64,000 bases of DNA from an uncultured Coriobacteriaceae bacterium (lineage in GTDB: Bacteria > Actinomycetota > Coriobacteriia > Coriobacteriales > Atopobiaceae), in NCBI GenBank assembly GCA_902793465.1, contig CADBDT010000007.1, positions 14,322 through 78,321 on the forward strand. Reading direction: 5' to 3'. The position numbers were made by a program, and so were the translations under genes. This document shows positions 16,265 through 32,536 of the stretch, in pieces; positions within the stretch are counted from its first letter, which is position 1; every line of letters begins with the position of its first letter. The notes beneath the pieces were generated by a model, which did no database searches, was not told where the DNA came from, and saw nothing but the letters and a program-made list of their open reading frames with translations.

Positions 16265-16284
16265 ATAAACCACCAATGCAACAA

Positions 16285-16979: not shown

Positions 16980-17028
16980 ATTCCTTATAACCTCCGTCAA
17001 TCAACTTGGCGCAATACGTCTTTTTTCG

Positions 17029-18348
17029 CTACGCGCGTGGCTTGCCGCAGTTCATGCAGAACTTGCCCGTATTCTGCGTGCCGCACTCGCACGTCCAGGG
17101 ACCGTTATCCGCAACGGGTTTGGGCGTACCGCACTCCATGCAGAACTTTCCGGTGTTCTGAGCGCCGCACTTGGGGCATGCCCAACCACCAGCAGGCTGC
17201 GGGGCGGGCTGTGGCTTGCCGCAGTTCATGCAGAACTTGCCTTGGTTCTGCGTGCCGCACTCGCACGTCCAGCCTCCCTGTGCCTGCGGCCTTCCAAAGC
17301 CGCCGTTGGGAGACACGCCGTAGGCGTTCTGGTACTGATACGGCTGGCCAACGCCGTCGTACATTCCAGGTTGGTTCATGCCCATGCCAGCTTGCTGCGC
17401 CATGTTCATACCCATGAAGCCCATCATGGCACCGTTCTCGTTTGCCGCGGCGGTACGCATGGCGTCGCCCGTTGCCATGCTCTGGTTGGCCGCACGCATG
17501 TTGGGATCGCGCATGACTGCCGTCATCTGCAGCGTCTTAATGCGCTCTTCGTCCTCGGGATTGGCAGCGATGGAGTTAATGCCAATGGCTGCGATCTTAA
17601 TGCCGCGAAGCTCGGTCCAGCTTGCAGAGAGGACCTCGTTGAGTGCAGCCGCGAGCTCCATGGTATGGCCGGGAACGGCACTGTAGCGCACGCCCTGCTC
17701 GGAAATCCTTGCGAAGGCCGGCTGCAGAGCGGTAAGGAACTCACTCTTAAGCTGGCTGTCTATGCGATCGCGCGTAAAGTCGCCCTCTACATTTGCGGCA
17801 ACGCTCTTATAGAAGAGCAGCGGGTCCACGATCTTGTAGGAGTACTCGCCGTTGCAGCGTACAGAAATGTCTGTGTCCAGACCAATGTTCATGTCTACGA
17901 CGCGGAAGGGAACAGGCGTGGGCGTTCCAAACTTGTTGCCCATAATCTCCTTGGTATTAAAGAAGTAGACACGCTGGTCGTTGGCCTCGTTGCCGCCAAA
18001 GGTAAAGCGGTAACCAATGCGCTCGAAGGTCTTCTTTATGCCCTCGCCCAGGCCACCATAGAGTACCGTGGGCTCGGTGCCAGAGTCAAACACGAACTCG
18101 CCAGCCTCGGCGCACACTTCCAGAATCTCGCCCTGCTGGACGATTATCATGCACTGGCCCTCGTTAACGGCAATAATTGAGCCGTTGGTAATAACGTTTT
18201 CGCTACCCTTGTTCGTGCCCTTCTTGGCGCGACGCTTTCCCTTGGTCATGAGCACGTCCGCGTTTAGGGAATCGCAGTAGAAGTAGTCCCTCCACTGATC
18301 CGAAAGCGCGCTCGATGCGGCGCCTATGCCTGCCTTAAGAAGTCCCAT
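17029..18348 (-). CDS. SPFH/band-7 superfamily protein, YdjI-like ('virion core protein' COG4260 type), with three C-terminal zinc ribbons
   Basis: N-terminus MGLLKAGIGAASSALSDQWRDYFYCDSLNADVLMTKG is typical of this family. The C-terminus has three W(T/A)C(E/P)(C/K)CG(T/A)QN.GKFC(M)(N/E)CG units. Confidence 0.8.
   Translation of the reverse strand: MGLLKAGIGAASSALSDQWRDYFYCDSLNADVLMTKGKRRAKKGTNKGSENVITNGSIIAVNEGQCMIIVQQGEILEVCAEAGEFVFDSGTEPTVLYGGLGEGIKKTFERIGYRFTFGGNEANDQRVYFFNTKEIMGNKFGTPTPVPFRVVDMNIGLDTDISVRCNGEYSYKIVDPLLFYKSVAANVEGDFTRDRIDSQLKSEFLTALQPAFARISEQGVRYSAVPGHTMELAAALNEVLSASWTELRGIKIAAIGINSIAANPEDEERIKTLQMTAVMRDPNMRAANQSMATGDAMRTAAANENGAMMGFMGMNMAQQAGMGMNQPGMYDGVGQPYQYQNAYGVSPNGGFGRPQAQGGWTCECGTQNQGKFCMNCGKPQPAPQPAGGWACPKCGAQNTGKFCMECGTPKPVADNGPWTCECGTQNTGKFCMNCGKPRA
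17038..17272. repeat. In-frame triplicated zinc-ribbon module (units 1 and 3 nearly identical at DNA level)
   Basis: 17038-17098 and 17212-17272 are 61-nt copies that differ only in a short patch (cccgtatt vs ccttggtt). The period is 174 nt, i.e. 58 codons. A diverged middle unit lies at about 17119-17190. Confidence 0.85.
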
Positions 18349-18432
18349 TCTATCCTCCGTTCCCCTGCCATACCGCAGGGATTGCTCGGCTCAACAATTT
18401 GCTACATATAATAGCGCTTTTGCAAAACTTGG

Positions 18433-19152
18433 TTACGTCAGAGCGCCACCGCAGTACTCGCACCGCCCGCTTGCGTCGGGCACGGTGGTTGCCAGGCAGT
18501 GCGGGCACTGTATGGCGGCGCGGGGTTGCTTGGCCGCTCGTACGCCCTCCTGAACTTGCGTTAGTGCTTCGGATATCTCCTTGCATGCGTTTTCGGCGCT
18601 CATGTATTCCGCAGATCCCTTGCGCTCGATGGTGTTGCGATTGTACTTGAAGCGAATGCTGTTCACGTAGGGGTGGTTGACAAGGATGTTTATGTAGAAG
18701 TCATACTCGTAGTCAAACCGTGGCGGGTTGTACGATTGCTCTACGCCGTCCGCGTCCTTGTACTTCTGTTCCGTACTGGTCTCGTCTACCTCGTAGCTGC
18801 AGCCCGTAATCTGATCGTATTCAAAGACGTCGGGGTTTGACGACCTCCAGTCCGACGCACGCGTGATTATTACCCGTTGCTCGTCCTCGTCTATGTAAAT
18901 CTTTGTGGTTGTCCCCAAGGTTCGGGTGGGGTTGAACTTCTCCACCTCTTTTTTGTTCTGCTCGCGATACGACAGCTGCTCGCGAATCTTGTCTACGGTC
19001 GTCTGACGCGCACCGGTAAAGTATGGTGAAAGCTTGCCCGCGCACTCCTTGCACAGCAGCCCGTCAGAGAGCTTCGTCTTGCCAAAAACTCCCAGCTCCG
19101 CATTGCACACGGAGCAATACTTCTTCTCGAACAGCTTTCCAAACAGAGCCAT
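18433..19152 (-). CDS. DUF4428-type zinc-ribbon protein (N- and C-terminal CxxC pairs)
   Basis: MALFGKLFEKKYCSVCNAELGVFGKTKLSDGLLCKECAGKLSPYF is the DUF4428 signature. The C-terminus has CPHC...CEYCG. Start refined to ATG 19152 (AAGGAGG 7 nt upstream). Confidence 0.75.
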   Translation of the reverse strand: MALFGKLFEKKYCSVCNAELGVFGKTKLSDGLLCKECAGKLSPYFTGARQTTVDKIREQLSYREQNKKEVEKFNPTRTLGTTTKIYIDEDEQRVIITRASDWRSSNPDVFEYDQITGCSYEVDETSTEQKYKDADGVEQSYNPPRFDYEYDFYINILVNHPYVNSIRFKYNRNTIERKGSAEYMSAENACKEISEALTQVQEGVRAAKQPRAAIQCPHCLATTVPDASGRCEYCGGALT

Positions 19153-19410
19153 TTGATCCTCCTTAGCAAAACGTATGCTATACAAAGTTGCTTCCATTAT
19201 GCGTGGTTGGATCTTGCCGAGCCGATGCGCGGTGCGGTTAATCGGCGAATGCCACTACGGCGCGTTGGCAGAGCTCGACCCGTTCGCTATTGGAGGCAAA
19301 GGCCGTGACACACCCCTTCACAAGCCGATCGCGCAGCGCGTCGACGTCGGGCCCGTCACAGCGCGCGTCTGTTACTCCCCTCCACGGCCTCGTGCAAGTG
19401 CCAGCTTCAC

Positions 19411-19737
19411 CTACCTGCCGTCCTTAACGAATATCGTCATCCTCACCTGGGCCTCGGGGTGCTGCGTCCAGTCCGTAGAAGACACGCGCGCCTCGAACAG
19501 TTTCCCATACCCGAAGTACAGGAGCTTCGACAGCTCGGCGTTCTTTGCCATGGGAACGAAACCGATCTTGGTCTTGCCGCAGTACACGGCAATGGCGTTG
19601 GGGTCGTAGGGGTTGTCTGGCTCGCCCTGCAGCTTGAGCTTCTTGCCCGGGCGCAGCTTGTTCATTACCTGCACGCCATACCAGTGGCTGAAGCCTGCGA
19701 CGTGGCAGGACAGGTACTCTCGTGACATCTCGTACAT
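19411..19737 (-). CDS. Stand-alone HIRAN domain protein
   Basis: 108 aa. HVAGFSHW...GKKLKLQGEPDNPYDPNAIAVY..KIGFVP matches the HIRAN core (L.REP.NP.D.NAI.V...G.VP). Confidence 0.75.
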   Translation of the reverse strand: MYEMSREYLSCHVAGFSHWYGVQVMNKLRPGKKLKLQGEPDNPYDPNAIAVYCGKTKIGFVPMAKNAELSKLLYFGYGKLFEARVSSTDWTQHPEAQVRMTIFVKDGR

Positions 19738-19920
19738 GGTTGCCTCCTTGCAATCGTGCGGGTCCTCCCCGTGTTTGTCGACATCATACGAGGCGTACTG
19801 GACAACAATTGCACCGCGGGCGTCGGTACGCAGAGGGTGGGGAGATTGGTCCTTGCAAGCATGCTTTTACCTCCATGGCAAAGGTGAAAACGGAATCGCC
19901 AAAACCTTTGTTAGTATGTT

Positions 19921-19948
19921 AGAATATTCACGGTATCGTGAATATTCT
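19921..19948. promoter_or_regulatory. Perfect 12-4-12 palindrome (candidate operator) upstream of the DUF4160/DUF2442 pair
   Basis: AGAATATTCACG-GTAT-CGTGAATATTCT. It ends 13 nt before the ATG at 19962 and overlaps a TAGAAT -10-like hexamer. Confidence 0.5.
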
Positions 19949-19961
19949 TTGGGGGTAACGA

Positions 19962-20216
19962 ATGCCAGTACTTGCAAGACTGGACGGCATTATCATAAGG
20001 ATGTACTTCCAGCAGGAAGAACATAATCCCCCGCACGTGCATGCCATTTACGGCGATTACATAATAGCTGTGGACATACGGACGGGAGAAGTCCTGGACG
20101 GGTCCTTCCCTCCCAAGAGGAAGGCCATCGTTTCGCAATGGGTGCTCGAACATCAGTCGGATTTACTGCACATTTGGGAGACGCAAGACTTCACGCGATT
20201 TGACCCCAAGGCATAG
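19962..20216 (+). CDS. DUF4160 domain protein
   Basis: 84 aa. IRMYFQQEEHNPPHVHAIYGDY is the characteristic DUF4160 motif. Confidence 0.85.
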   Translation: MPVLARLDGIIIRMYFQQEEHNPPHVHAIYGDYIIAVDIRTGEVLDGSFPPKRKAIVSQWVLEHQSDLLHIWETQDFTRFDPKA

Positions 20217-20229
20217 GGAGCTAAACAAT

Positions 20230-20676
20230 ATGGTCGCTTTTCACAAAGTCAACTCCGTAACGGCACTCAAGCCGTATATGCTCATAGTCCAGTTTGCCGA
20301 GGGAGTATCCAAGACGTATGACGTAAGCATGCTGTTCGACAAGTGGCCCGCGTTTCAGGCGCTCCAGTCGAATGATGCCCTGTTTGCACGAGTGCATGTG
20401 GACGTGGGAGGACACGGCATCGTGTGGGACGACAATCTAGACCTCTCGTGCAACGAGCTCTTTCGCAATGGACAGGTTGTTGACACCGAATTCGATGGTC
20501 TTATGGCGTGCTCGGATGCAACAGCCATCTGGGGGCTACACGAGAGCACGCTTCGAAAAGCAATTGCATACGGTCGGCTTAGGAGCGGCGTGGACGTCTG
20601 CAAGTTCGGCAAGCAGTGGGTGGTAAGCAGGGATGCCATGATACGCGAGTTCGGACCACTGGACTCGCATTTGTAG
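20230..20676 (+). CDS. DUF2442 domain protein with C-terminal helix-turn-helix extension
   Basis: DUF2442-like N-terminal half (VTALKPYMLIVQFAEGVSKTYDV...VWDDNLDLS). The C-terminal AIWGLHESTLRKAIAYGRL looks like an HTH. Start refined to ATG 20230 (GGGAG upstream). Confidence 0.8.
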   Translation: MVAFHKVNSVTALKPYMLIVQFAEGVSKTYDVSMLFDKWPAFQALQSNDALFARVHVDVGGHGIVWDDNLDLSCNELFRNGQVVDTEFDGLMACSDATAIWGLHESTLRKAIAYGRLRSGVDVCKFGKQWVVSRDAMIREFGPLDSHL

Positions 20677-21353: not shown

Positions 21354-21396
21354 TTACTCCGATTAATCCTGTAATATGGTACTAGGAGGTGCAAAT

Positions 21397-21984
21397 ATGC
21401 TCTTGACTACTCGTATGCTCGAAGACCGGCTTTCCGAGTATGGGAATCCACGCAATAGAATAGGCCGTATGGTCGACGCCGGTGAACTCATACAAGTTCG
21501 CCGGGGGCTCTACGAGACGGACCGCACGGTGGCAGGTTGCGGTTTGGCGCCAAGCATTTATGGTCCCTCGTACCTTTCGTTCGAGTACGCAATGGCGCGT
21601 CATGGCCTCATTCCCGAAGCCGTGCACGTCTTTACATCTGCCACCTGCGCAAAGCGCAAGTCGCGTAGCTACGAGAACGCATACGGCCGGTACGACTACC
21701 AAGACGTTCCCGTCTCCGTGTTCTCCCTTTGTGTGGAGTTGGTACGCGAGCCAGGCTACCCGTACTGGATTGCGACCCCCGAGAAGTCGCTCTGCGACAA
21801 GCTGTACAAGTTGCCACCCGTTGCAAACAAGGTGGAGTTCGAGACGCTTCTTCTCGACGACCTTCGGATTGGCGAGGATTCCCTAGGGTCGCTCGACTTG
21901 AATGCAGTCGCAATGTTGGCGCGGCGCTATCGCTGCCGCAACGTAATGCGCCTCGCCAGCTACCTCAGGGGGATGCGCCGATGA
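21397..21984 (+). CDS. abiEi: AbiEi-family type IV antitoxin (transcriptional regulator)
   Basis: GELIQVRRGLYET...PSYLSFEYAMARHGLIPE...ATPEKSLCDKLY matches the AbiEi pattern. Start at ATG 21397 (AGGAGG upstream). ATGA overlap with the next gene. Confidence 0.85.
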   Translation: MLLTTRMLEDRLSEYGNPRNRIGRMVDAGELIQVRRGLYETDRTVAGCGLAPSIYGPSYLSFEYAMARHGLIPEAVHVFTSATCAKRKSRSYENAYGRYDYQDVPVSVFSLCVELVREPGYPYWIATPEKSLCDKLYKLPPVANKVEFETLLLDDLRIGEDSLGSLDLNAVAMLARRYRCRNVMRLASYLRGMRR

Positions 21985-22862
21985 AAACCATGCTCGACGC
22001 CATGCTTGAACCCTACGAGTCATCTACAGCCGAGCAGCGCAAGCTGGCGCTCAGGCAGGTCGCCCAAGAGGTTATTCTCTGCGGCCTGAGCCGTGCGGGG
22101 TTCTTCGGTCCCGCCGCGTTCTACGGAGGAACAGCCCTACGTATCTTTTACGGCCTCGACCGCTTTTCGGAGGACATGGACTTTTCGCTGCGGCAGCCAG
22201 ATGCGAATTTTGACCTTGGTCCATATCTCGCTTCGGCCGAACGAGAGTGCGAGGCTTGGAGCCTTCATTTCCATGCTGAGGAAAAGCGCAAGACGGGCAG
22301 GTCTGCCATCAAGTCCGCGTTCCTCAAGAGCAATACGCGCGAATGCCTGATCACGCTGTTCTCCGACGACGGAGTGGCGAATGCAATAGCCCCTGGCGAG
22401 CTCTTGCGCATAAAACTTGAGCTCGACACCGACCCCGCACCACATGCGACATTCGAGAGACAATACCGTCTTTTGCCGTCGCCCTACGAGGTCGGCCTCT
22501 ACGATACACCGTCGCTCCTTGCGGGCAAGGCACATGCTGTCATAGCACGCGCATGGAGGTCACGCGTCAAGGGGCGCGACCTCTATGACTACGTGTTCTA
22601 CCGCTCGAGAAACATCCCCGTTAACGTGGCGCATCTAGGGGCAAAGCTGCAGCAGACCGGCCAGGTTGCGTCGGGCCAGGATTTTGGTTTGGATGACGCG
22701 ACCCGGCTCCTGTGCGAGCGCTTCGAAAGCATAGACTATGTCCAAGCCAAGGCAGATGTCCTGCCGTTTATCCGTGATCCACATTCCCTTGACGTCTGGA
22801 GCGCGGACTTCTTCTGCTCCATTACCGAGGAGCTTTCCGAAGCGATTGCGGATGCTAACTAG
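21981..22862 (+). CDS. abiEii: AbiEii/AbiGii-family nucleotidyltransferase toxin
   Basis: FYGGTALRIFYGLDRFSEDMDFSL is the family signature (GGTAL...R.SEDLDF). Start refined to ATG 21981. Confidence 0.9.
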   Translation: MKTMLDAMLEPYESSTAEQRKLALRQVAQEVILCGLSRAGFFGPAAFYGGTALRIFYGLDRFSEDMDFSLRQPDANFDLGPYLASAERECEAWSLHFHAEEKRKTGRSAIKSAFLKSNTRECLITLFSDDGVANAIAPGELLRIKLELDTDPAPHATFERQYRLLPSPYEVGLYDTPSLLAGKAHAVIARAWRSRVKGRDLYDYVFYRSRNIPVNVAHLGAKLQQTGQVASGQDFGLDDATRLLCERFESIDYVQAKADVLPFIRDPHSLDVWSADFFCSITEELSEAIADAN

Positions 22863-22904: not shown

Positions 22905-25274
22905 TCAGATCTGGTCGAGCATGCCCACGCCCCACTCTGCCACGCGCTCGCGCATGCCGTCCACGTCCAGGACGCCGTAGGCAAAGCCCTTGCGTACGAG
23001 CTCGGACGGCACGTACTCGTCGTACTTGTCGAACACCGGCACCTCGGCGGGATACAGGAGCTCCAAGGGGTCGAAGTCCTGCAACGCAGCGTTTTGCAGT
23101 GCGTCCAAAAACTCCTCGGCACCCGCCTTCATCCTAAACTGTATAAAGTACGGCCGCGACACGTCCACGCCCTTAATGCCCAGGCTTGCTGGAAGACGGA
23201 GCTTGATTACCCGCTCCAGCGCCAGGAACGCGTAGGTACCCAGCCAGGGAAAGAGCGCCCACATGTCCCCTCCCAGGTTGATGAGCGGGGCGCGCGTAAT
23301 CCCCGCGTTCATAGCCACGGTCCGTGCATGCGCCAGCCTCGCGCGGGCGTTCTTGCGCAAATAGGCATAGTCCTTGTGCTCGCGCAATACCTCGCGCATG
23401 CGTTCGAGCACGCGCGTGTTAATGTCACCAGGGCATTCTCCGAAATATGCCGGCACCTTTCCGCGAACCTGCGTGCAGTACACAAGCCTGCGCTTGTGGT
23501 CTATCTCCTCCACAATCCACACGTGCCCCGCTATGGCGAGCTTCTCGCCAACCGGCGGCGGCTGCACCACGGTTCCGAGCTCCTGGGAATCCGAGCGGAC
23601 AGTATACTCCTCGCTTTCCACAAACACACCGTAGAACCTAAAGTTGTTGGTCACGCGCTCGCCTGCCAGACCCACAATGAGCCCACCCGTCTCCGTGCGC
23701 TCTATGTGGTCCATATCCAGCATGTGTTGCAGAAGAACGCGATAGTCGTCCTGGCTCACGTTTGAGAAATACGCCAGACTCAGAACGCGGCTGGCCAACC
23801 CAGCGGGACTCAGCTCCCCGCTCGAGGCAAGCGTTGCCATGGTCTGATGATACAAAAGGCTATACGGCAGGCGGTCCGGGCGCGGTGGCTCCACCCAACG
23901 CTCCTCCACGTAGAGCTGAACCAACGCTATGCCCTGCAAGAGCTTCCAAGGTATGGTCTCGCTTACCATCGCGCGCGGCTCTGGCGGGTCTTCGCGCATT
24001 ACAAACCACATCTCGGGCGGCTCGCCGCGCCTTCCGGTCCTGCCCATGCGCTGCAAAAACGCGCTAACCGTAAAGGGCGCATCTATTTGGAAGGCCCTCT
24101 CCAGCCTCCCGATGTCTATGCCAAGCTCGAGCGTTGCCGTCGTGCAGGTGGTAAGGGCAAGCTCCTCGTCGCGCATGAGGTCCTCCGCCGTCTCCCTAAA
24201 GCTGGACGAAAGATTGCCGTGATGGATTAGAAAGCGGTCAGGTTCCCCGTTTGCCTCGCAGTAGCTTCGCAAGGAGGTCGTAACGGCCTCGCAGTCCTCG
24301 CGCGAATTGGAGAAGACGAGGCACTTGTGTCCCTGCGAGTGCTCGTAGATGTATGCGATGCCAGGATCGGCGTTCGCAGGAGCGGGGTTAGCGTCGGATT
24401 CGAGGGCATCGGCTTGCAAAGTTGCCGCTTCGACGACAGAGGCATCGCCTCGTTCTGGCGTTGGCGTATCGCCAGGCAGTCCAACCGGTTCGACCTTCTC
24501 CACGATGGCGTCCACATGCAAAGAGCCCCCGGCAGAACGCACCGCCCCCACTTGCTCCGTGGCCTGGGGGCCGTAGGTGTAAAAGTGCTCCATGGACAGG
24601 CGCCAGACCTGCCCCGCCTCCTCCACCCGAGGAACGATGGTGTACCTCCCCGTTCCCTTGGACAAGATCCTGCCGCATGCCTCAGGGTCGCCAATCGTCG
24701 CAGAGAGCCCTATTCGCCTTGGATTGCAGCGTGCCATGCGTTGCAATCTTTCCAGCAGGCACAACGTCTGCCCACCGCGATCTCCCCTTAGCAGCGAATG
24801 CACCTCGTCGATTACCACAAACCTCAGGTCACAGAACAGCTTTGGCACAACCGCATGCCTGTGCATGAGCATTGCCTCTAGCGACTCCGGCGTTATTTGC
24901 AGCACACCCCTGGGCTTCTTTACCATGCGTGCCTTATGCGATGCGCTCACGTCGCCGTGCCAGTGCCACACCGGTATTCCCGCATCGCGACAAAGGTCTT
25001 CGAGCCTGTAGAACTGGTCGTTTATGAGTGCCTTAAGGGGCCCGATGTAGAGCGCGCCAATGGAGGCTGGCGGGTCTTCGTCAAAGAGCGTGAGTATGGG
25101 AAAGAATGCCGCCTCGGTCTTGCCCGATGCGGTGGAGGATGTAAGCAGGACGTTTTCGTCCGTGTTAAAGATGGCATCTCCTGCAGCCACCTGAATACCC
25201 CTGAGCGACTCCCAGTCGTGGGCATAAATGAAGTCCTGCACAAACGGCGCATAGCGATCAAATACGTTAGACAT
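22905..25274 (-). CDS. sngC: DEVH-box superfamily-2 helicase (Lhr-like); putative Shango SngC
   Basis: Walker A TASGKTEAAF, DEVH box VVIDEVHSL, SAT motif LSATIG, and helicase-C motifs (MGRTGRRG). Third gene of the TerB-N / ATPase / helicase triad. Confidence 0.8.
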   Translation of the reverse strand: MSNVFDRYAPFVQDFIYAHDWESLRGIQVAAGDAIFNTDENVLLTSSTASGKTEAAFFPILTLFDEDPPASIGALYIGPLKALINDQFYRLEDLCRDAGIPVWHWHGDVSASHKARMVKKPRGVLQITPESLEAMLMHRHAVVPKLFCDLRFVVIDEVHSLLRGDRGGQTLCLLERLQRMARCNPRRIGLSATIGDPEACGRILSKGTGRYTIVPRVEEAGQVWRLSMEHFYTYGPQATEQVGAVRSAGGSLHVDAIVEKVEPVGLPGDTPTPERGDASVVEAATLQADALESDANPAPANADPGIAYIYEHSQGHKCLVFSNSREDCEAVTTSLRSYCEANGEPDRFLIHHGNLSSSFRETAEDLMRDEELALTTCTTATLELGIDIGRLERAFQIDAPFTVSAFLQRMGRTGRRGEPPEMWFVMREDPPEPRAMVSETIPWKLLQGIALVQLYVEERWVEPPRPDRLPYSLLYHQTMATLASSGELSPAGLASRVLSLAYFSNVSQDDYRVLLQHMLDMDHIERTETGGLIVGLAGERVTNNFRFYGVFVESEEYTVRSDSQELGTVVQPPPVGEKLAIAGHVWIVEEIDHKRRLVYCTQVRGKVPAYFGECPGDINTRVLERMREVLREHKDYAYLRKNARARLAHARTVAMNAGITRAPLINLGGDMWALFPWLGTYAFLALERVIKLRLPASLGIKGVDVSRPYFIQFRMKAGAEEFLDALQNAALQDFDPLELLYPAEVPVFDKYDEYVPSELVRKGFAYGVLDVDGMRERVAEWGVGMLDQI

Positions 25275-25342
25275 GGCCCACCCTCAACCTCAACTTATAA
25301 GTTAGCGCTTGGAGTCAAGCTCCCCTCATAGCGGCGTTGCCC

Positions 25343-26680
25343 CTAGATGGTGAACTCGGCATATTCGGAGCTCGCGGCCTCGCCCTCCTCGCCCTCGGGA
25401 CGCGCGTGCACAAAGTCGCCCGACCCAAGAAGCCCCGCAACGGTAATGCTTGGATCCTGCCACATTATGTCGAGCATCTCAATAAAGTCGCGAATGACCT
25501 CGCGTGGCGTTATGTGCGACTCCGCCCCCACGCGCCCGAACTCAAGCTGCAGGAACACGATAAGGTCGTCTTCCGTAAGGGTGCGAGTGTAGCCAAACAG
25601 GTCGGCGTGGATGTTGGCCAGCTTTTCTACCAGCACCAGAAGCTCCTCGTGCGTGAGGGGCTGAAGGCGAATTACGGGAGCCAGGAGGTCCACCATGCCC
25701 TCGCGCCCGAACCTGCCCTGCGTGAGCCTGGAGCGCAGCGCCTCGTAGGAATACAGCCCGCGACGCCGGTCCTCCACGCACTGCGGCGTTCCGCTCATAA
25801 TTACACCCAAGTGTTCCGCCCTGCCCTGCAGGGCGTCATTGTACATGGTAAGGATCTTTTCGTAGTTGTATTGGCGCGAAATGGCATGTGGGATCTTGTA
25901 CAGATTTACCAGCTCGTCCACGAGCACCACGAGCCCTTCGTACCCTGCGCCCACCAAGAACCGCGCAAGCAGCTTTATGTAGTCGTACCAATCGTCATCC
26001 GAGATTATGCAGCCTACCCCAAGCTCGTTCTTTGCCTCGGTCTTGTTGCGATACTCCCCACGGAACCACTTTGAGACGTAAGACTTGGTCTCGTCGTCTG
26101 CCTCCACATGCGCGCGGTAGTACATGGAGAGCACGCGCGCGAAGTCGAACCCGTGTACCATCTGCTGCAGGTCGTCTATAACCACGTAGATGCGACGTTC
26201 CACCTCGGCGTTGAAGCCGGGGTCGTCCGGAGAGATTCCGTCCTGCGCGACGGCACTCTGTATGCCAGCGATCCAGCGATCGAGCACAAGCGTAAGCGCA
26301 CCGCCCTCCGGCCGGGTCCTGGTGGAAAGGTTGCGAACGAGCTCTCGGTACGTGGCAAGCCCCTGTCCCTTTGTTCCCTGCAGCCGGCGCTCCGGGGAAA
26401 GGTCTGCATCTGCGACCACGAAGTTCTTGCCCATGGCATGGTTTCGAATCGTCTGAAGTAGGAAGCTCTTTCCGCTGCCGTAGCGTCCCACTACGAACCT
26501 AAACGAAGCTCCACCCTCGGACACTATGCTCAAGTCCCGCAGCAAGGCTCCTATCTCTGCCTCGCGCCCAACCGTAATGTAGGGCAGTCCCACACGGGGC
26601 ACCACACCGCCCTTGAGGGAGTTTATGAGAACTGTTGCTATGCGCTTTGGTACGCGCTGACCCTGCTTGGTATCCGCCAT
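25343..26680 (-). CDS. sngB: DUF2791-like P-loop ATPase; putative Shango SngB
   Basis: LINSLKGGVVPRVGLPYITVGREAE...VVGRYGSGKSFLL (Walker A) and LVVLVDELVNL (Walker B). Start refined to ATG 26680 (GAGGTGG upstream). Confidence 0.78.
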   Translation of the reverse strand: MADTKQGQRVPKRIATVLINSLKGGVVPRVGLPYITVGREAEIGALLRDLSIVSEGGASFRFVVGRYGSGKSFLLQTIRNHAMGKNFVVADADLSPERRLQGTKGQGLATYRELVRNLSTRTRPEGGALTLVLDRWIAGIQSAVAQDGISPDDPGFNAEVERRIYVVIDDLQQMVHGFDFARVLSMYYRAHVEADDETKSYVSKWFRGEYRNKTEAKNELGVGCIISDDDWYDYIKLLARFLVGAGYEGLVVLVDELVNLYKIPHAISRQYNYEKILTMYNDALQGRAEHLGVIMSGTPQCVEDRRRGLYSYEALRSRLTQGRFGREGMVDLLAPVIRLQPLTHEELLVLVEKLANIHADLFGYTRTLTEDDLIVFLQLEFGRVGAESHITPREVIRDFIEMLDIMWQDPSITVAGLLGSGDFVHARPEGEEGEAASSEYAEFTI

Positions 26681-26802
26681 AATCCACCTCGCTCGTTCGA
26701 ATACACAAGTATACACTGCGTACACGTGTTCGTAAAGTACGTAAACGAGACGGTTTGAGTGAGGACTCACGGCACCCTGCAACGTGCCCGAATGGAAGTA
26801 GC

Positions 26803-28470
26803 TTATCCCAGCATATCCTTTACGTCCTGTATGTAGTCCTCCACGAGCACGGGGCTTCCCCCGTCGAACTCCACCACGGTGTCGCCTATCTCGTCTAGCA
26901 GCGCCTCGTTAATGGAGTCTGCGGCAAGCGTAAGGAACATGTCGTCATACTGCTCTAGAGGGCTTCCGTCCAAGAGCGCCAGCAACAGCTGCAGATGCTC
27001 CTCGCTGAGGCCTAGCGTGTTGGCTGGCGCCCTCTGTGCCTGAACCTCAACCACTACTTGAGGTGCAGCTTTAGGCTTTTCCGCCGGCTCGATGTCCATA
27101 TCGTCCTCGGTGAGTAGCGCTTCTTGCGTACGAATGGACGCGTTGCGTATTCCGGCAAGAGAATTGCGATCTATTCGTATGTGAGCGGCCTCCGCTGCCT
27201 TCTTGCGCGCCAAATACGCTTCGATTTCCTCGTCCACGAACTTTGCCTGATACTTGGGAAGCGGCTTCTCCTTAAGCGGGTGCGCATCACCAAAGGCGAG
27301 TCTGGTACGTGCGTCTATGGCGTGCAACAGGGCTCCGAGCTCTTTGCTCTTATCCGTACGTCGGCATGGGTACTCGCGCGTCCAAAAACCACGACTGCAT
27401 ATATAGACCTCGCCAGCTGACGCCTCGTACCTTACGTCCTCATGCCGCTTTCCGGTCCAGAAAACGGCCGAAGGGAACATAAAGTAGCTTCTGCCAGTGG
27501 CTGGCCCAAAGAGGCCGTCGATGTAGTTGGTCTTGCGACGCTTGTTGCAATGCGCCACCATGCGGGCAAACACGTTGCAGGTAATCTGTGCAACAGCCTC
27601 TTTGTTCTCGCGTACAAAGCGAGATCGGTCTGCACGATAGCGCGATAACGCCACAAGAGCATCCAGCAACTCTTCCTGCGTAGGCATCCCGTCCAAGTGC
27701 TTAACGGGCCATTCGGAAAGGCGGTTGTCCAGCAGCACCCGCTCGGCTGCCCTGAGCACTACGACATTCTTTGATCCAAAGTCGTTGGGCAGAGGGGCGA
27801 GCAACTGGGCGTCCAGGCCATGGAACACAATATAGTCGTGCCTCCATCGCCGCATGTAGGAATCAAACGCCTGGCTTATACCCTTATATTGCTCTGCAAA
27901 TTCGTCTAGCTCGGCAAGCCCCGGCATGCCTTCTGGGGCTCCGATGCCGCATAGCAGCTCGTAGGCGTGCACGAACAAGAAGGGAAGCGTCGCGTATGTT
28001 ACCTCTCCGTGCCTGAGTCGCGTTCTCCAACCAAAATAGCACCTAAGCTGAAAGTCGCTCATTGCCTCGTACGTTGGAAAATAACAGTCGAAGGAGCACT
28101 CCCCGTCAAAGTCGTCCTCGAAGTCCTCCATCAGTTTGCCCTGCTCGTAAAAGAGCCTCCAGCTAGAAGTTCCACCACGCCTTGGGGAACCTGCCATGCG
28201 ACGCATTTTGCGGTACTCTGGCGGCAGCGCACGCCTTGCGCGGGCCTGTTGGAGCCTGGCGTGCAAATCGGGATGTACGCCCACTCCCCTATCGACGTCT
28301 TTAATAGCCTCGTCTTCGGAAAAGAGCGCTTCCTGATGCGGACACGCCGTCTTGCGCGCCCCAGCACGCAAGATGGGCTCGTCCGTATACGTTCGCTCGG
28401 AAAAAATGCGCGAGTTTACGTACCGCTCATCAGACAAGATCTGGTCTACGATGTCTTGCGCGCGCGTCAT
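26803..28470 (-). CDS. sngA: TerB-N / TerB-C domain protein; putative Shango SngA
   Basis: YFPTYEAMSDFQLRCYFGWRTRLRHGEVTYATLPFLFVHAYELLCGIG fits TerB-N. The C-terminal LLALLDG...ADSINEALLDEIGDTVVEFD fits TerB-C. ATG 28470 is used as the start; a TTG at 28476 is an alternative. Confidence 0.78.
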   Translation of the reverse strand: MTRAQDIVDQILSDERYVNSRIFSERTYTDEPILRAGARKTACPHQEALFSEDEAIKDVDRGVGVHPDLHARLQQARARRALPPEYRKMRRMAGSPRRGGTSSWRLFYEQGKLMEDFEDDFDGECSFDCYFPTYEAMSDFQLRCYFGWRTRLRHGEVTYATLPFLFVHAYELLCGIGAPEGMPGLAELDEFAEQYKGISQAFDSYMRRWRHDYIVFHGLDAQLLAPLPNDFGSKNVVVLRAAERVLLDNRLSEWPVKHLDGMPTQEELLDALVALSRYRADRSRFVRENKEAVAQITCNVFARMVAHCNKRRKTNYIDGLFGPATGRSYFMFPSAVFWTGKRHEDVRYEASAGEVYICSRGFWTREYPCRRTDKSKELGALLHAIDARTRLAFGDAHPLKEKPLPKYQAKFVDEEIEAYLARKKAAEAAHIRIDRNSLAGIRNASIRTQEALLTEDDMDIEPAEKPKAAPQVVVEVQAQRAPANTLGLSEEHLQLLLALLDGSPLEQYDDMFLTLAADSINEALLDEIGDTVVEFDGGSPVLVEDYIQDVKDMLG

Positions 28471-28479
28471 AGCCAAGCT

Positions 28480-29721
28480 TTACGCCAAGGCGGCGCGCAA
28501 CTCTTCTACGCGATTGGTCTTTTCCCAGGTAAAGTCTGCATCCTCGCGTCCAAAGTGACCGTAGGCGGCAGTCTTCCTAAATATGGGCCGCCGAAGCTTG
28601 AGGTCGCGGATAATGGCAGCAGGCCTCAGGTCGAACACTTGCGAGACCGCCCTCTCAAGCTTTCTCTCGTTCACCGAGGCTGTGCCAAAGGTGTCCACCA
28701 TAATGGAAAGAGGATGGCTTACGCCAATGGCATACGAAAGCTGGACCTCGCACCTTCGAGCAAGACCTGCCGCCACAACGTTCTTCGCAACCCAGCGAGC
28801 CGCATATGCCGCGGAACGGTCCACCTTAGTGCAGTCCTTTCCGCTAAAAGCACCACCACCATGGCGACCCATGCCTCCGTATGTGTCCACAATAATCTTG
28901 CGACCGGTAAGGCCCGTGTCGCCCATGGGACCGCCCACAACAAACCTTCCCGTCGGGTTGACGTATATCTTGGCATCCTTCCACGCTATACCGACCCCGT
29001 CGAGCACGGGTGCGATAACATGCTCAACCATGTCGCGCTCTATCAACTTCATGTCCTTGACGTTGGGATCGTGCTGCGTGGACACCACGACCGCGGTAAC
29101 CTCCACGGGCGCGTCATCCTCGTAGCGCACCGTAACCTGCGTCTTGCCGTCCGGCCGCAGGTAATCCAGGACACCGTCCTTGCGCACGGCGGCAAGCCGC
29201 TGCGCCATGCTCTGTGCCAGAAACGCTGGCATTGGCATAAGCACCTCGGTCTCGTCCGTTGCGTAGCCAAACATCATTCCCTGGTCGCCGGCGCCAATCC
29301 TATCCAGATCGTCCACGTCGCCCCTTGCATACGTTCCGTCCACACCTTGCGCGATGTCGGGACTCTGCTCGTGAATCATGTTTATAACGCCGCAGGTCTC
29401 GTAGTCAAAGCCATACTTGGCCCTGTCGTAGCCAATGCTCCTTACGACCTCGCGCACTATCTTTTGCACGTCCACATACGCCTGTGTGCGAATCTCGCCT
29501 GCCACGATAACGGTGCCGGTGGTTAGGAACGTCTCGCACGCGCAGCGAGCATCGGCCAAGGAAGCGGCAATGCCATTGGGCGCCACGTATCCCTGCTCCT
29601 CCAGACGGGCCTCCTTCGCGAGTATGGCGTCTAGGATGGCGTCGGATATCTGGTCCGCCATCTTGTCGGGATGCCCTTCGGTAACGCTTTCCGAAGTAAA
29701 CAGGTAGCTCCTGCCTTCCAT
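28480..29721 (-). CDS. metK: S-adenosylmethionine synthase
   Basis: [29 protein letters not shown] and GGGAFSGKD motifs. Confidence 0.97.
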
Positions 29722-29768: not shown

Positions 29769-29797
29769 AGTATAGCCAAACTGCAAAACGTTGAGAA
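29769..29797 (-). promoter_or_regulatory. Candidate sigma-70 promoter of metK
   Basis: Minus strand reads TTCTCA, 17 nt, TATACT. The -10 ends about 48 nt upstream of the metK ATG. Confidence 0.35.
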
Positions 29798-29830
29798 GCA
29801 CGGCGGGGACAGCTCGGGTGCGTCGTGGAT

Positions 29831-29910
29831 GGGGTGCCGCTTGGGGATACTCCCCCTGCGGTACATTGTCCACAATGTACCGCAGGGGGAGTATCCCCAA
29901 GCGGCACCCC
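29831..29910. repeat. Family-2 structured repeat, copy 1: perfect 39-2-39 palindrome
   Basis: GGGGTGCCGCTTGGGGATACTCCCCCTGCGGTACATTGT-CC-ACAATGTACCGCAGGGGGAGTATCCCCAAGCGGCACCCC. I verified the arms as exact reverse complements. It ends 23 nt after the helicase stop. Confidence 0.92.
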
Positions 29911-29933
29911 ACCTTACGGGAGACCACACCCCT

Positions 29934-32495: not shown

Positions 32496-32536
32496 GAGGA
32501 CCCCTTCCAGTATGCAATGGCGAATGTCGCCAAACG

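What the first reader, a model, noticed from the sequence alone, without database searches (positions are those of the whole stretch)
22905..28470. TerB-N/TerB-C protein + DUF2791-like ATPase + DEVH helicase: probable Shango anti-phage system, positioned 10 nt behind metK
Three co-directional genes show the domain triad that comparative genomics linked early on (TerB-N/TerB-C with a P-loop ATPase and an SF2 helicase). To my recollection this triad was later shown to be anti-phage and named Shango (SngA/B/C) in the 2022 expansion of defence systems by Millman and colleagues. The evidence is motif-level only: the TerB-N YFGWRTRL...YELLCGIG block, Walker A/B in the ATPase, and DEVH/SAT/helicase-C in the helicase. 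What is unusual here is the position of sngA. Its ATG is 10 nt after the metK stop (6 nt between stop codon and ATG; a TTG alternative directly abuts the stop), with no hairpin or obvious promoter in between. The system may therefore be co-transcribed with the essential SAM synthetase from the metK promoter. The Shango mechanism is still poorly understood, so a Coriobacteriia-type homologue with this coupling is worth a look.
Basis: partly seen in the sequence, partly recalled or inferred. Interest (0 to 1): 0.68.

Follow-up and report, generated by a model that had tools for sequence, protein, structure and literature searches.

The report
Core-genome Shango defence locus behind metK
This is a complete three-gene Shango anti-phage system that one clade of gut/rumen Coriobacteriia has inherited vertically at a fixed spot between the housekeeping genes metK and priA; its first gene is fused to the metK transcription unit, while the other two sit behind their own conserved promoter that carries a DNA-damage (LexA-type) operator.

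Summary
Three co-directional minus-strand genes are sngA (26803-28470), sngB (25343-26680) and sngC (22905-25274). They match the PADLOC Shango models over their full length (E 2.6e-69, 6.6e-189, 1e-270), and sngA starts 9 nt after the metK stop codon.

Comparative data add three points.
1. The metK-to-sngA adjacency is ancient. It occurs in 10 diverged lineages (SngA 44-77% identical), with 1-4 nt stop/start overlaps in three of them. These lineages form one clade in the MetK tree, and the SngA and SngB trees agree with it. In outgroups metK abuts priA directly.
2. SngB and SngC evolve as slowly as MetK (dN/dS 0.03 against 0.04). SngA evolves 3-5 times faster.
3. sngB-sngC have their own promoter, with an invariant TATACT in all lineages. 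In most lineages it carries a CGAAC-N4-GTACG box that fits the actinobacterial LexA consensus. Foreign genes have been inserted between sngA and sngB in three lineages, but never between metK and sngA.

Three sister lineages have a SAM-I riboswitch in front of metK. The window does not.

Verdict: this is a canonical Shango system and so a known kind. Its genomic and regulatory context appears undescribed and is testable. Function and regulation are inferred, not shown.

The parts
28480..29721 (-). metK (S-adenosylmethionine synthetase, 413 aa). It is the upstream housekeeping gene whose stop codon (TAA, 28482-28480) lies 9 nt before the sngA ATG.
   Evidence: Pfam S-AdoMet_synt N, M and C domains, E 4e-40 to 1e-70. 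It is 95% identical to L086 and 82-87% identical to the other Shango-bearing lineages.
29769..29797 (-). Promoter-like site for metK (TTCTCA-17-TATACT), followed by the Shine-Dalgarno sequence GAAAGGAG. No SAM riboswitch is present here, unlike in sister lineages.
   Evidence: Consensus scan, sequence and Rfam with no hit even at E<=1. By contrast, RF00162 lies upstream of metK in L099, L091 and L094.
29828..29913 (-). Perfect 41-bp hairpin between the DUF3516 helicase gene and metK. It is probably the end of the upstream transcription unit.
   Evidence: Sequence; RNA fold -93 kcal/mol. L086 carries a shorter version.
28471..28479 (-). The 9-nt metK-sngA spacer, AGCTTGGCT. It has no Shine-Dalgarno sequence, no terminator and no promoter.
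   Evidence: Homologous junctions in other lineages: -4 nt (L089, L091), -1 nt (L188), 8 nt (L086), 9 nt (L096), 38 and 53 nt with a Shine-Dalgarno sequence (L095, L099), 194 nt with a long hairpin (L094) and 474 nt with a terminator (L087).
26803..28470 (-). sngA (555 aa). It has TerB_N (aa 96-227) and TerB_C (aa 419-553) with an unassigned alpha/beta core between them. It is the fast-evolving subunit.
   Evidence: PADLOC SngA 2.6e-69 and Pfam. The identical protein P0001 occurs on 5-6 public metagenome contigs. dN/dS is 0.15, against 0.03-0.04 for the neighbouring genes. The AF2 model has pLDDT 83 and no PDB fold match at E<=0.001.
26681..26802 (-). The sngA-sngB spacer (122 nt), which holds the sngB-sngC promoter.
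   Evidence: A spacer of at least 97 nt is present in every lineage of the clade. In ordinary Shango loci (L097, L098, L180, L181, L185-L187) sngA and sngB overlap or are 1-6 nt apart, while P. peoriae L182 has a 322-nt gap.
26708..26736 (-). Promoter of sngB-sngC: TTTACG-17-TATACT. The TATACT is invariant in the nine aligned lineages and is also kept in L188.
   Evidence: Consensus scan, alignment A1 (invariant columns T93-T98) and L188.
26719..26732 (-). LexA-type (SOS) box, CGAACACGTGTACG, lying between the -35 and -10 elements of the sngB promoter.
   Evidence: It is the only CGWAC-N4-GTWCG match in the 64-kb window. Boxes recur at Shango promoters of L086, L087, L089, L091, L094, A. fossor L097 and L098 and of Paenibacillus L183. 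It fits the ChIP-seq consensus tCGAAC-N4-GNNCGa. Similar boxes lie upstream of the DNA-repair radical-SAM operon in two Atopobiaceae.
25343..26680 (-). sngB (445 aa), a BrxC/BrxD-family P-loop ATPase. Walker A is GRYGSGKS and Walker B is VVLVDELV. Its Shine-Dalgarno sequence is GAGGTGG.
   Evidence: PADLOC SngB 6.6e-189, against BrxD 2.5e-48. Pfam PF10923 5e-165. It is 87-97% identical across the clade, with dN/dS 0.031.
22905..25274 (-). sngC (789 aa), an SF2 helicase related to Lhr, MrfA and BrxHI, with a DEVH motif. It has a variable low-complexity insert at aa 241-300.
   Evidence: PADLOC SngC 1e-270, against BrxHI 1.4e-120. Nearest solved structures by sequence are Lhr (5v9x, 7lhl) and MrfA/YprA (6znp). 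It is 83-84% identical across the clade. Conservation profile.
21376..22862 (+). AbiEi/AbiEii type IV toxin-antitoxin (abortive-infection) pair, convergent with sngC. It is a lineage-specific addition to the locus.
   Evidence: PADLOC AbiEi 1e-58 and AbiEii 9.7e-95; Pfam. It is absent at this position in L087, L089, L091, L094 and L099.
19411..20676 (.). Further lineage-specific cargo: a HIRAN protein (19411-19737, minus strand), DUF4160 (19962-20216, plus strand) and DUF2442-HTH (20200-20676, plus strand).
   Evidence: Pfam and the gene calls on the identical contig L081. HIRAN hits PADLOC candidate PDC-M03B at 3e-11.
16359..19197 (-). Conserved companions between Shango and priA: DUF4428 (18433-19197), an SPFH/Band_7_1 protein with three C-terminal zinc ribbons (17029-18348) and a lipoprotein-like ORF (16359-17000).
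   Evidence: Pfam and ORFs. SPFH follows sngC in L087, L089, L091, L094 and L099 at 77-91% identity. There are no PADLOC hits. It was not found in any of the outgroup metK loci, including those where metK abuts priA.
13946..16276 (-). priA, the housekeeping gene that directly follows metK in outgroup genomes. It marks the far edge of the inserted block.
   Evidence: Pfam PriA domains. metK-priA adjacency with gaps of 23-162 nt in L003, L011, L013, L014, L015 and L105.

Best explanation
The locus is a canonical, intact Shango (SngA-SngB-SngC) anti-phage system. It is not on a mobile island. An ancestor of one Coriobacteriia clade (Atopobiaceae-like gut/rumen bacteria) acquired it, together with an SPFH gene, inside the conserved metK-priA-def-fmt-rsmB gene string, and it has been inherited vertically since.

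The locus is organised as two expression units.
- Unit 1 is metK-sngA. sngA has no promoter, terminator or ribosome-binding site of its own in the 9-nt spacer. It is therefore most likely transcribed from the metK promoter and translated by termination-reinitiation coupling. This ties SngA supply to metK expression. In sister lineages metK expression is SAM-riboswitch controlled.
- Unit 2 is sngB-sngC. It is driven by a conserved promoter (invariant TATACT) that overlaps a LexA-type operator. The ATPase and the Lhr-like helicase are therefore probably kept low and induced by DNA damage or RecA activation, as happens during phage DNA replication.

Inferred mechanism: SngA, the fast-evolving TerB-N/TerB-C subunit, acts as the sensor or adaptor. 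It recruits or licenses the slowly evolving SngB ATPase and SngC 3'-5' helicase motor, which acts on phage DNA or replication intermediates.

What is shown: gene identity, intact catalytic motifs, synteny, vertical inheritance, selection regimes, and conservation of the promoter and box. What is inferred: co-transcription, LexA binding, anti-phage activity in this host and the division of labour among the subunits.
For: Identity:
- PADLOC SngA, SngB and SngC are the top, near full-length hits. The Pfam domains agree.
- The literature confirms the triad as Shango, with anti-phage activity in E. coli and P. aeruginosa.

Vertical inheritance:
- All 10 lineages whose MetK is at least 82% identical to the window's have sngA directly after metK.
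- They are monophyletic in the MetK tree, and the SngA and SngB trees share the same subclades.
- dS of sngB (0.52) is about equal to dS of metK (0.55) for the window against L086.
- GC content of the locus equals that of its surroundings.
- Outgroups have metK-priA adjacent with no Shango.

Unit 1 (metK-sngA):
- The spacer is 9 nt, with no terminator and no Shine-Dalgarno sequence.
- L089 and L091 have an ATGA overlap. L188 has a TGATG overlap with a Shine-Dalgarno sequence inside metK.
- Lineages with 38- and 53-nt spacers have a Shine-Dalgarno sequence.
- Foreign genes were inserted between sngA and sngB in L089, L096 and L188, but never between metK and sngA.

Unit 2 (sngB-sngC):
- TATACT is invariant and a box is conserved in an otherwise 40%-identical spacer.
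- The box is unique in the window.
- 8 of the 21 boxes with at most one mismatch, found in 560 kb, sit at Shango promoters.
- Independent recurrences occur in A. fossor, L098 and Paenibacillus.
- The box fits tCGAAC-N4-GNNCGa.
- The same box types lie upstream of a DNA-repair operon in two Atopobiaceae.

SAM link: RF00162 lies upstream of metK in L091, L094 and L099.

Selection: dN/dS is 0.031 for SngB, 0.044 for MetK and 0.15 for SngA.
Against: - There is no transcript data. A promoter for sngA could lie inside the 3' end of metK, and the consensus scan used is crude.
- Coupling is not universal. L087 has a true intrinsic terminator plus its own Shine-Dalgarno sequence between metK and sngA. 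L094 has a -102 kcal/mol hairpin there.
- The window itself lacks the SAM riboswitch, so SAM-responsive control cannot be claimed for this genome.
- LexA binding is untested. No lexA or recA promoter from these genomes was available as a control.
- One half-site is always GTAC rather than GTTC.
- L096 and L188 lack the box.
- Three Firmicute and two enterobacterial plasmid Shango loci lack an SOS box.
- Read-through from sngA into sngB is not excluded, because the spacer has no strong terminator.
- Anti-phage activity has only been shown for distant proteobacterial homologues.
Confidence: 0.6

Rival explanations
1. Passive relic. Shango was once inserted into the tight metK-priA junction, and the adjacency persists only because a 0-10 nt spacer offers no neutral target for rearrangement. 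On this view sngA has its own unrecognised promoter inside metK. The link to metK has no regulatory meaning, and the conserved box upstream of sngB is just part of an ordinary promoter.
For: - In outgroups metK and priA are 23-162 nt apart, so any insertion there would land next to metK.
- The spacer length varies from -4 to 474 nt. One lineage has a terminator and another a large hairpin, which shows that coupling is dispensable.
- The upstream neighbours of metK vary (DUF3516 helicase, PNP_UDP_1, TetR, HTH).
Against: - The adjacency survived in the lineages where the spacer grew to 194-474 nt, and where 2-8.5 kb of foreign DNA entered between sngA and sngB.
- Short-spacer lineages lack a Shine-Dalgarno sequence, while long-spacer lineages have one. 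This is the pattern expected if translation really is coupled.
- The box is palindromic. It recurs at non-homologous Shango promoters in different positions relative to the -10 element.
Confidence: 0.2
2. Housekeeping DNA-repair module. In this clade the SngB ATPase and the Lhr/MrfA-like SngC helicase, together with SngA, serve an SOS-induced genome-maintenance role rather than, or in addition to, phage defence.
For: - SngB and SngC are as constrained as MetK (dN/dS 0.03-0.09) and more conserved than PriA (66-72% identity).
- Inheritance is strictly vertical, at a core locus flanked by priA and near recG.
- The promoter carries a LexA-type box.
- The closest solved relatives of SngC are Lhr and MrfA. 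To my knowledge both are DNA-damage repair helicases.
- The locus shows no mobility genes.
Against: - All three proteins score far better against the Shango models than against any other model.
- Homologous triads protect E. coli and P. aeruginosa from phages.
- Slow evolution of SngB and SngC holds for Shango generally: identity to the distant L098 is still 68-71%.
- SngA evolves fast, as expected for a component facing phages.
- Other defence genes (AbiE, a HIRAN candidate) have accumulated in the same locus.
- sngC is missing near sngA-sngB in L095, L096 and possibly L188. An essential repair module would be unlikely to lose it.
Confidence: 0.12
3. Chromosomal defence hotspot. The metK-priA interval is a landing pad where different defence systems come and go, like cDHS1/2 of P. 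aeruginosa. Shango is just its current occupant in this genome.
For: - The cargo between sngC and SPFH varies: AbiE, DUF4160/DUF2442 and HIRAN in the window; glyoxalase in L087; HAD and amylase in L089.
- Johnson et al. describe Shango as a frequent resident of a core hotspot flanked by conserved genes.
Against: - Shango itself does not turn over. The same orthologous sngA and sngB occupy the site in all 10 lineages, with phylogeny congruent with MetK and equal dS.
- No integrase, transposase or tRNA flanks the locus in the window.
- Only the segment after sngC behaves like a hotspot.
Confidence: 0.08

Closest known systems
Shango (SngA/SngB/SngC) of E. coli (Millman et al. 2022) and P. aeruginosa PA14 cDHS1 (Johnson et al. 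2023)
   Same: It has the same three genes in the same order: a TerB-N/TerB-C protein, a BrxD-like ATPase and a DEAD/DEAH helicase. Each protein gives a full-length hit to the Shango HMMs. The catalytic motifs are intact.
   Different: - Host: a Gram-positive Coriobacteriia.
- Inheritance: vertical, at one core locus across a whole clade, rather than sporadic.
- Position of sngA: fused to the end of metK.
- Spacing: sngA is separated from sngB by at least 97 nt, which holds a separate promoter. In most other Shango loci examined sngA and sngB overlap or lie within a few nt of each other, although P. peoriae L182 has a 322-nt gap.
- Regulation: a LexA-type box at the sngB-sngC promoter.
BrxD + BrxHI module of BREX (the type 2/Pgl-like accessory ATPase and Lhr-like helicase)
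   Same: SngB hits BrxD (2.5e-48) and belongs to Pfam BrxC_BrxD. SngC hits BrxHI (1.4e-120). A published helicase phylogeny groups SngC with BrxHI, DruE and DpdJ.
   Different: - No PglX/BrxX methyltransferase, PglZ or other BREX core gene was found among the genes annotated across most of the window.
- Scores to the Sng models are much higher.
- A TerB-N/TerB-C protein is present instead.
Core defence hotspots (cDHS1/2) of P. aeruginosa
   Same: A defence locus sits at a fixed chromosomal position bounded by conserved housekeeping genes. Extra defence cargo (AbiE, HIRAN) accumulates beside it.
   Different: The resident system is itself orthologous and vertically inherited in all lineages. 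No MGE scars or flanking tRNA/tmRNA were found.
LexA (SOS) regulon promoters of Gram-positive bacteria and Actinobacteria
   Same: A 14-bp imperfect palindrome, CGAAC-N4-GTACG, overlaps the -35/-10 region. It fits tCGAAC-N4-GNNCGa (S. venezuelae ChIP-seq) and GAAC-N4-GTTC (B. subtilis).
   Different: Binding is untested. One half-site is consistently GTAC. No lexA or recA promoter of these genomes was available for comparison.
Lhr and MrfA/YprA DNA-repair helicases
   Same: They are the nearest solved structures to SngC by sequence (5v9x and 7lhl at about 1e-26; 6znp at 4.5e-21).
   Different: Similarity is confined mostly to the first RecA-like domain (aa 34-214). SngC belongs to the Shango/BrxHI group according to the PADLOC scores.

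Membership tests
Shango defence system | SngA: a protein with TerB_N and TerB_C domains that matches the SngA model | tested here: met
   PADLOC PDLC03958, E 2.6e-69, covering aa 60-556 against model positions 63-527 of 528. Pfam TerB_N 6e-21 and TerB_C 5e-15.
Shango defence system | SngB: a BrxC/BrxD-family (I recall this as the former DUF2791) P-loop ATPase that matches the SngB model | tested here: met
   PADLOC PDLC03959, E 6.6e-189, against model positions 4-423 of 439. PF10923 5e-165. Walker A and B motifs are intact.
Shango defence system | SngC: an SF2 DEAD/DEAH helicase that matches the SngC model | tested here: met
   PADLOC PDLC03960, E 1e-270, against model positions 3-716 of 720. 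Motifs I, II (DEVH), III (SAT) and VI are present.
Shango defence system | The three genes are adjacent and co-directional | tested here: met
   The genes span 22905-28470 on the minus strand, with gaps of 122 and 68 nt.
Shango defence system | Protects cells against phage infection | not testable with these tools
   Shown only for the E. coli and P. aeruginosa systems.
BREX | Core genes pglX/brxX (methyltransferase) and pglZ/brxZ next to the ATPase | tested here: not met
   No such domains were found among the genes annotated between roughly positions 400 and 49400 of the window. The BrxD and BrxHI models score well below SngB and SngC.
LexA/SOS regulon | An operator that matches the lineage's LexA consensus and overlaps the promoter | tested here: met
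   CGAACACGTGTACG lies at 26719-26732, between the -35 and -10 elements. It fits tCGAAC-N4-GNNCGa.
LexA/SOS regulon | The same operator lies upstream of bona fide SOS genes (lexA, recA) in the same genome | tested here: inconclusive
   No lexA or recA was found in the window or the loci. Only surrogate controls were available: boxes upstream of the putative DNA-repair radical-SAM operon in L002 and A. fossor.
LexA/SOS regulon | LexA binding and DNA-damage induction | not testable with these tools
   This needs EMSA or ChIP, and RNA measurements after mitomycin C.
SAM-I (S-box) riboswitch control of metK-sngA | An RF00162 aptamer upstream of metK | tested here: not met
   The window gives no hit at gathering threshold or at E<=1. 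The feature is met in sister lineages L099 (48.2 bits) and L091 (46 bits), and nearly met in L094 (44.1 bits against a gathering score of 44.4).
AbiE toxin-antitoxin (neighbouring system) | An AbiEi antitoxin and an AbiEii nucleotidyltransferase toxin as an overlapping gene pair | tested here: met
   PADLOC AbiEi 1e-58 and AbiEii 9.7e-95. The genes are at 21376-21984 and 21978-22862.

The most novel reading that the evidence does not exclude
In this Coriobacteriia clade, Shango is wired to two host-state signals that phages commonly perturb.
- SngA, the fast-evolving sensor subunit, is produced from the metK message by translational coupling. In several lineages this places it under a SAM-I riboswitch, so SAM depletion would raise its level. 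Phage SAM-degrading enzymes that also inhibit MetK are one possible cause of such depletion.
- The SngB ATPase and SngC helicase are held under a LexA-type operator and released by DNA damage or RecA activation.

The system would then act as a two-input gate. It would also be the first Shango with a defined regulatory logic, giving an experimental handle on a defence system whose mechanism is still unknown.
Probability: 0.2. Interest if true: 0.75.

Novelty: new member of a known kind. Interest (0 to 1): 0.5.

Why it matters
Shango is experimentally validated, but its mechanism was still described as unclear in the most recent preprint I found (Sep 2025). I found no solved structure for SngA or SngB.

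This locus offers several experimental handles:
- A natural case in which the three genes are split into two differently controlled units.
- A clear split in evolutionary rate that points to SngA as the phage-facing subunit.
- A candidate DNA-damage operator, which gives a simple testable prediction: mitomycin C induces sngB-sngC.
- A possible link to SAM metabolism.

It also shows that a defence system can behave like a core gene. It has been vertically inherited and is constrained as tightly as MetK across a family-level clade. This matters for how defence islands are recognised in gut and rumen Actinomycetota.

If the regulatory inferences fail, what remains is an ordinary Shango homologue.

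Tried and rejected
1. Recent mobile-island insertion. My first reading, after 80 GTDB metK loci showed no Shango and L013 showed metK-priA adjacent, was a recent 12-kb island. I rejected it once SngA homologues of 44-54% identity turned out to sit behind metK as well, with congruent trees and equal dS.
2. SAM riboswitch in the window. None was found at gathering threshold or at E<=1. It is present only in sister lineages.
3. tRNA, integrase or transposase flanks. None were found.
4. Structural clue for SngA. The AF2 model is good (pLDDT 83), but Foldseek against the PDB gave nothing at E<=0.001. Sequence searches of the PDB were empty for SngA and SngB.
5. More Shango loci from viral contigs. 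The single-protein scan found none and the alignment scan found one fragment. This was unproductive.
6. Generality of the SOS box. It is absent from C. estertheticum, B. cereus and P. peoriae plasmid Shango. No E. coli-type CTGT-N8-ACAG box lies upstream of sngA on two enterobacterial plasmids. The box is therefore not a universal Shango feature.
7. lexA and recA as positive controls.
8. SPFH, DUF4428 and DUF2442 as known defence genes. None has a PADLOC hit.
9. L001 (MetK 81% identical). The contig is too short and rearranged to tell whether Shango is present.

Full report
**1. Observation**

Four long ORFs lie head to tail on the minus strand:
- a DUF3516 DEAD-box helicase (29934-32723);
- metK (28480-29721);
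- a 555-aa ORF (26803-28470);
- a 445-aa ORF (25343-26680, taking the ATG that has a GAGGTGG Shine-Dalgarno sequence);
- a 789-aa ORF (22905-25274).

The metK stop TAA is at 28482-28480 and the next ATG at 28470, so 9 nt (AGCTTGGCT) separate them. The ATG at 28470 is the real start. The conserved N-terminus M[TSR]RAQDIVD begins there in all homologues, and public gene calls give exactly this 555-aa protein (P0001).

**2. Identity**

Pfam:
- first protein: TerB_N plus TerB_C;
- second protein: BrxC_BrxD (PF10923), E 5e-165;
- third protein: DEAD plus Helicase_C.

PADLOC gives SngA (2.6e-69), SngB (6.6e-189) and SngC (1e-270) as the best, near full-length hits. BrxD and BrxHI are distant seconds. 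The literature confirms that this triad is Shango. Millman et al. named it, and Johnson et al. found it independently in the P. aeruginosa PA14 core defence hotspot 1. In the papers I could search, its mechanism was still described as unclear in September 2025. A helicase phylogeny groups SngC with BrxHI, DruE and DpdJ. By sequence, the nearest solved structures to SngC are Lhr and MrfA/YprA. SngA and SngB have no solved relatives. A confident AlphaFold model of SngA (pLDDT 83) has no PDB fold match. No BREX core genes are nearby.

**3. Genomic setting**

The window is ordinary core chromosome. In order it carries:
- plsX, coaD, rsmD, recG, fakA, rpmB, rsmB, fmt, def, priA;
- then a lipoprotein-like ORF, SPFH, DUF4428, HIRAN, DUF4160/DUF2442, AbiEi/AbiEii, sngC, sngB, sngA;
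- then metK, the DUF3516 helicase, DUF218 and, further on, coaBC.

No tRNA, integrase or Rfam element is present, and GC content is uniform. MetK is closest to Coriobacteriaceae/Atopobiaceae MAGs (at most 81% identity among the GTDB species representatives returned). The exact locus occurs on several metagenome contigs (L081-L085).

**4. The metK link is ancient**

In outgroup Coriobacteriia, metK is followed directly by priA-def-fmt-rsmB (L003, L011, L013, L014, L015, L105). None of the 160 metK-seeded loci outside the clade carries Shango. I first read this as a recent 12-kb island in the window.

Looking up the genomic contexts of SngA homologues overturned that reading. Every lineage examined whose SngA is at least 41% identical to the window's has sngA immediately downstream of metK. 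These are L086, L087/88, L089, L091-93, L094, L095, L096, L099 and L188/189. In most of them the order is sngB, sngC, SPFH and then priA.

More distant Shango loci (A. fossor L097 and L098, 35-37% SngA identity) are not next to metK.

In the MetK tree the Shango-bearing lineages form one clade. The SngA and SngB trees recover the same subclades. For the window against L086, synonymous divergence is the same for sngB (0.52) and metK (0.55). The simplest reading is one acquisition, together with SPFH, into the metK-priA junction of the clade's ancestor, followed by vertical descent. The AbiE, DUF4160/DUF2442 and HIRAN genes are additions specific to the window's lineage.

**5. Selection**

Identity to the window, across the clade:

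| Protein | Identity |
|---|---|
| SngB | 87-97% |
| SngC | 83-84% |
| MetK | 82-95% |
| PriA | 66-72% |
| SngA | 47-77% |

dN/dS for the window against L086:

| Protein | dN/dS |
|---|---|
| SngB | 0.031 |
| MetK | 0.044 |
| SngA | 0.151 |

- The ATPase and the helicase are therefore as constrained as an essential enzyme.
- SngA evolves 3-5 times faster along its whole length, most of all in two disordered linkers.
- The same asymmetry holds against distant Shango loci (SngB 68-78%, SngA 35-39%).
- It is therefore probably a general property of Shango, and it points to SngA as the subunit that faces phage.

**6. Two expression units**

*(a) metK-sngA.* The window's spacer has no promoter, terminator, Shine-Dalgarno sequence or unusual RNA structure. 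Homologous junctions are:
- ATGA overlaps in L089 and L091;
- a TGATG overlap with a Shine-Dalgarno sequence inside metK in L188;
- 8-9 nt without a Shine-Dalgarno sequence in L086 and L096;
- 38 and 53 nt with a Shine-Dalgarno sequence in L095 and L099;
- 194 nt with a long hairpin in L094;
- 474 nt with a textbook intrinsic terminator plus a Shine-Dalgarno sequence in L087.

So a Shine-Dalgarno sequence is missing where the spacer is tight and present where it is long. This is what real translational coupling predicts. The L087 case shows that coupling can be given up.

*(b) sngB-sngC.* In most ordinary Shango loci examined, sngA and sngB overlap or are a few nt apart; P. peoriae L182, with a 322-nt gap, is the exception. 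In this clade they are always at least 97 nt apart. In three lineages foreign genes sit between them:
- an amylase gene in L089;
- an opposite-strand GGDEF gene in L096;
- 8.5 kb of opposite-strand genes in L188.

Alignment of the sngB upstream regions is only 40% identical overall, yet it contains an invariant TATACT 25-45 nt before the ATG and a conserved palindromic motif just upstream. L188 also keeps the TATACT. So sngB-sngC have their own promoter. In the window it is TTTACG-17-TATACT at 26736-26708.

**7. A LexA-type box**

The conserved motif is CGAAC-N4-GTACG or its mirror image, CGTAC-N4-GTTCG. The evidence is as follows.
- It occurs once in the 64-kb window, at 26719-26732.
- Across about 560 kb of Coriobacteriia sequence, 8 of the 21 sites within one mismatch of CGAACNNNNGTTCG are at Shango promoters.
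- It recurs at non-homologous Shango promoters. In A. fossor it lies immediately after a TATACT upstream of sngA. In L098 the box is CGAACATCTGTTTG, 9 nt before TATGAT. In Paenibacillus cellulositrophicus it is CGAACGTGCGTTCT, overlapping TATAAT.
- It fits the ChIP-seq LexA consensus of Streptomyces venezuelae, tCGAAC-N4-GNNCGa, and the Gram-positive core GAAC-N4-GTTC.
- As surrogate positive controls, the putative DNA-repair radical-SAM/DUF4130 operon carries AGAACGTCTGTTCG in L002. In A. fossor it carries AGAACACTTGTACT and TAGAACATTTGTTCTA. A radical-SAM repair gene is also in the S. venezuelae LexA regulon.

Caveats:
- No lexA or recA promoters of these genomes were available.
- L096 and L188 lack the box.
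- Three Firmicute and two enterobacterial plasmid Shango loci have none.

I rate LexA control of sngB-sngC in this clade as about even odds.

**8. SAM**

A SAM-I riboswitch with a terminator precedes metK in L099, L091 and, just under threshold, L094. In L091 sngA overlaps metK, so SngA synthesis there should respond to SAM. The window and L086 have no riboswitch. In its place they have a 41-bp perfect hairpin, a promoter-like site and a Shine-Dalgarno sequence.

Phage T3 SAMase degrades SAM and inhibits MetK to escape BREX. A SAM-sensing input to a BrxD/BrxHI-related system is therefore an attractive hypothesis, but it remains speculative and does not apply directly to this genome.

**9. Verdict**

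The system itself is a canonical Shango, so it is a new member of a known kind. Four things appear new and are testable:
- the clade-wide vertical fixation between metK and priA;
- the split into a metK-sngA unit and an sngB-sngC unit;
- the contrast in evolutionary rate between SngA and SngB/SngC;
- the candidate SOS operator.

All functional and regulatory statements are inferences from sequence.

Noticed in passing
window 29828-29913 (minus strand): A perfect 41-bp inverted repeat (-93 kcal/mol as RNA) lies between the DUF3516 helicase gene and metK, with no U-tract. L086 has a shorter version. L094 carries an unrelated long hairpin (-102 kcal/mol) between metK and sngA. These may be REP-like elements or unconventional terminators.
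   Followed up: partly
L099 4597-4704; L091 6578-6665; L094 6340-6459: SAM-I riboswitches (RF00162) lie upstream of metK in three sister lineages but are absent from the window, L086, L087, L089, L095, L096 and L188. The metK leader has been remodelled repeatedly within one clade.
   Followed up: partly
window 17029-19197 (minus strand): An SPFH/Band_7_1 protein with three tandem C-terminal zinc-ribbon repeats, and a DUF4428 zinc-ribbon protein. SPFH accompanies Shango (77-91% identity) in every lineage that retains sngC, and it was not found in any outgroup metK locus. It has no PADLOC hit. It may be a fourth, unrecognised partner, or it may simply have been acquired together with Shango.
   Followed up: partly
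window 21376-22862 (plus strand): A complete AbiEi/AbiEii toxin-antitoxin (abortive-infection) pair, convergent with sngC and only 42 nt from its stop codon. It is specific to the window's lineage.
   Followed up: yes
window 19411-20676: A small stand-alone HIRAN protein (108 aa) hits PADLOC candidate system PDC-M03B (3e-11). Next to it is a DUF4160/DUF2442-HTH gene pair that looks like a toxin-antitoxin module. GC content here is slightly lower (0.55).
   Followed up: no
L095, L096, L188/L189: In one subclade sngC, SPFH and priA are not found within 8-9 kb downstream of sngB (L095, L096). In L188, 8.5 kb of opposite-strand genes separate sngA from sngB: a two-component system and a 1633-aa protein. 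sngA and sngB nevertheless stay intact and conserved (SngB 87-89%). Either sngC has moved elsewhere or a two-gene remnant is maintained.
   Followed up: partly
L087 5470-5640: The 474-nt metK-sngA spacer of this lineage contains an intrinsic terminator, followed by two direct copies of a roughly 40-nt element. Each copy holds the palindrome TTACGCACAATGN6CATTGTGCGTAA, which looks like an operator or a MITE.
   Followed up: no
L002 7376; L184 2925-2980: The 'putative DNA modification/repair radical SAM' + DUF4130 operon of two Atopobiaceae has GAAC-N4-GT[TA]C boxes in its promoter. This suggests it belongs to the SOS regulon in this family.
   Followed up: partly
window 22905-25274, SngC aa 241-300: A low-complexity Ala/Pro/Asp-rich insert lies between the two RecA-like domains of SngC. 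It is poorly conserved (0.34-0.44, against above 0.8 elsewhere) and makes the protein about 70 aa longer than the PADLOC model.
   Followed up: no
window 29934-32723 (minus strand): A DUF3516 DEAD-box helicase lies immediately upstream of metK and is conserved at this position in L086, L094 and L099 (82-95%). Its PADLOC hits to HamB and PDC-M23B cover only the helicase C-terminal domain, so it looks like a housekeeping gene rather than a defence gene.
   Followed up: partly
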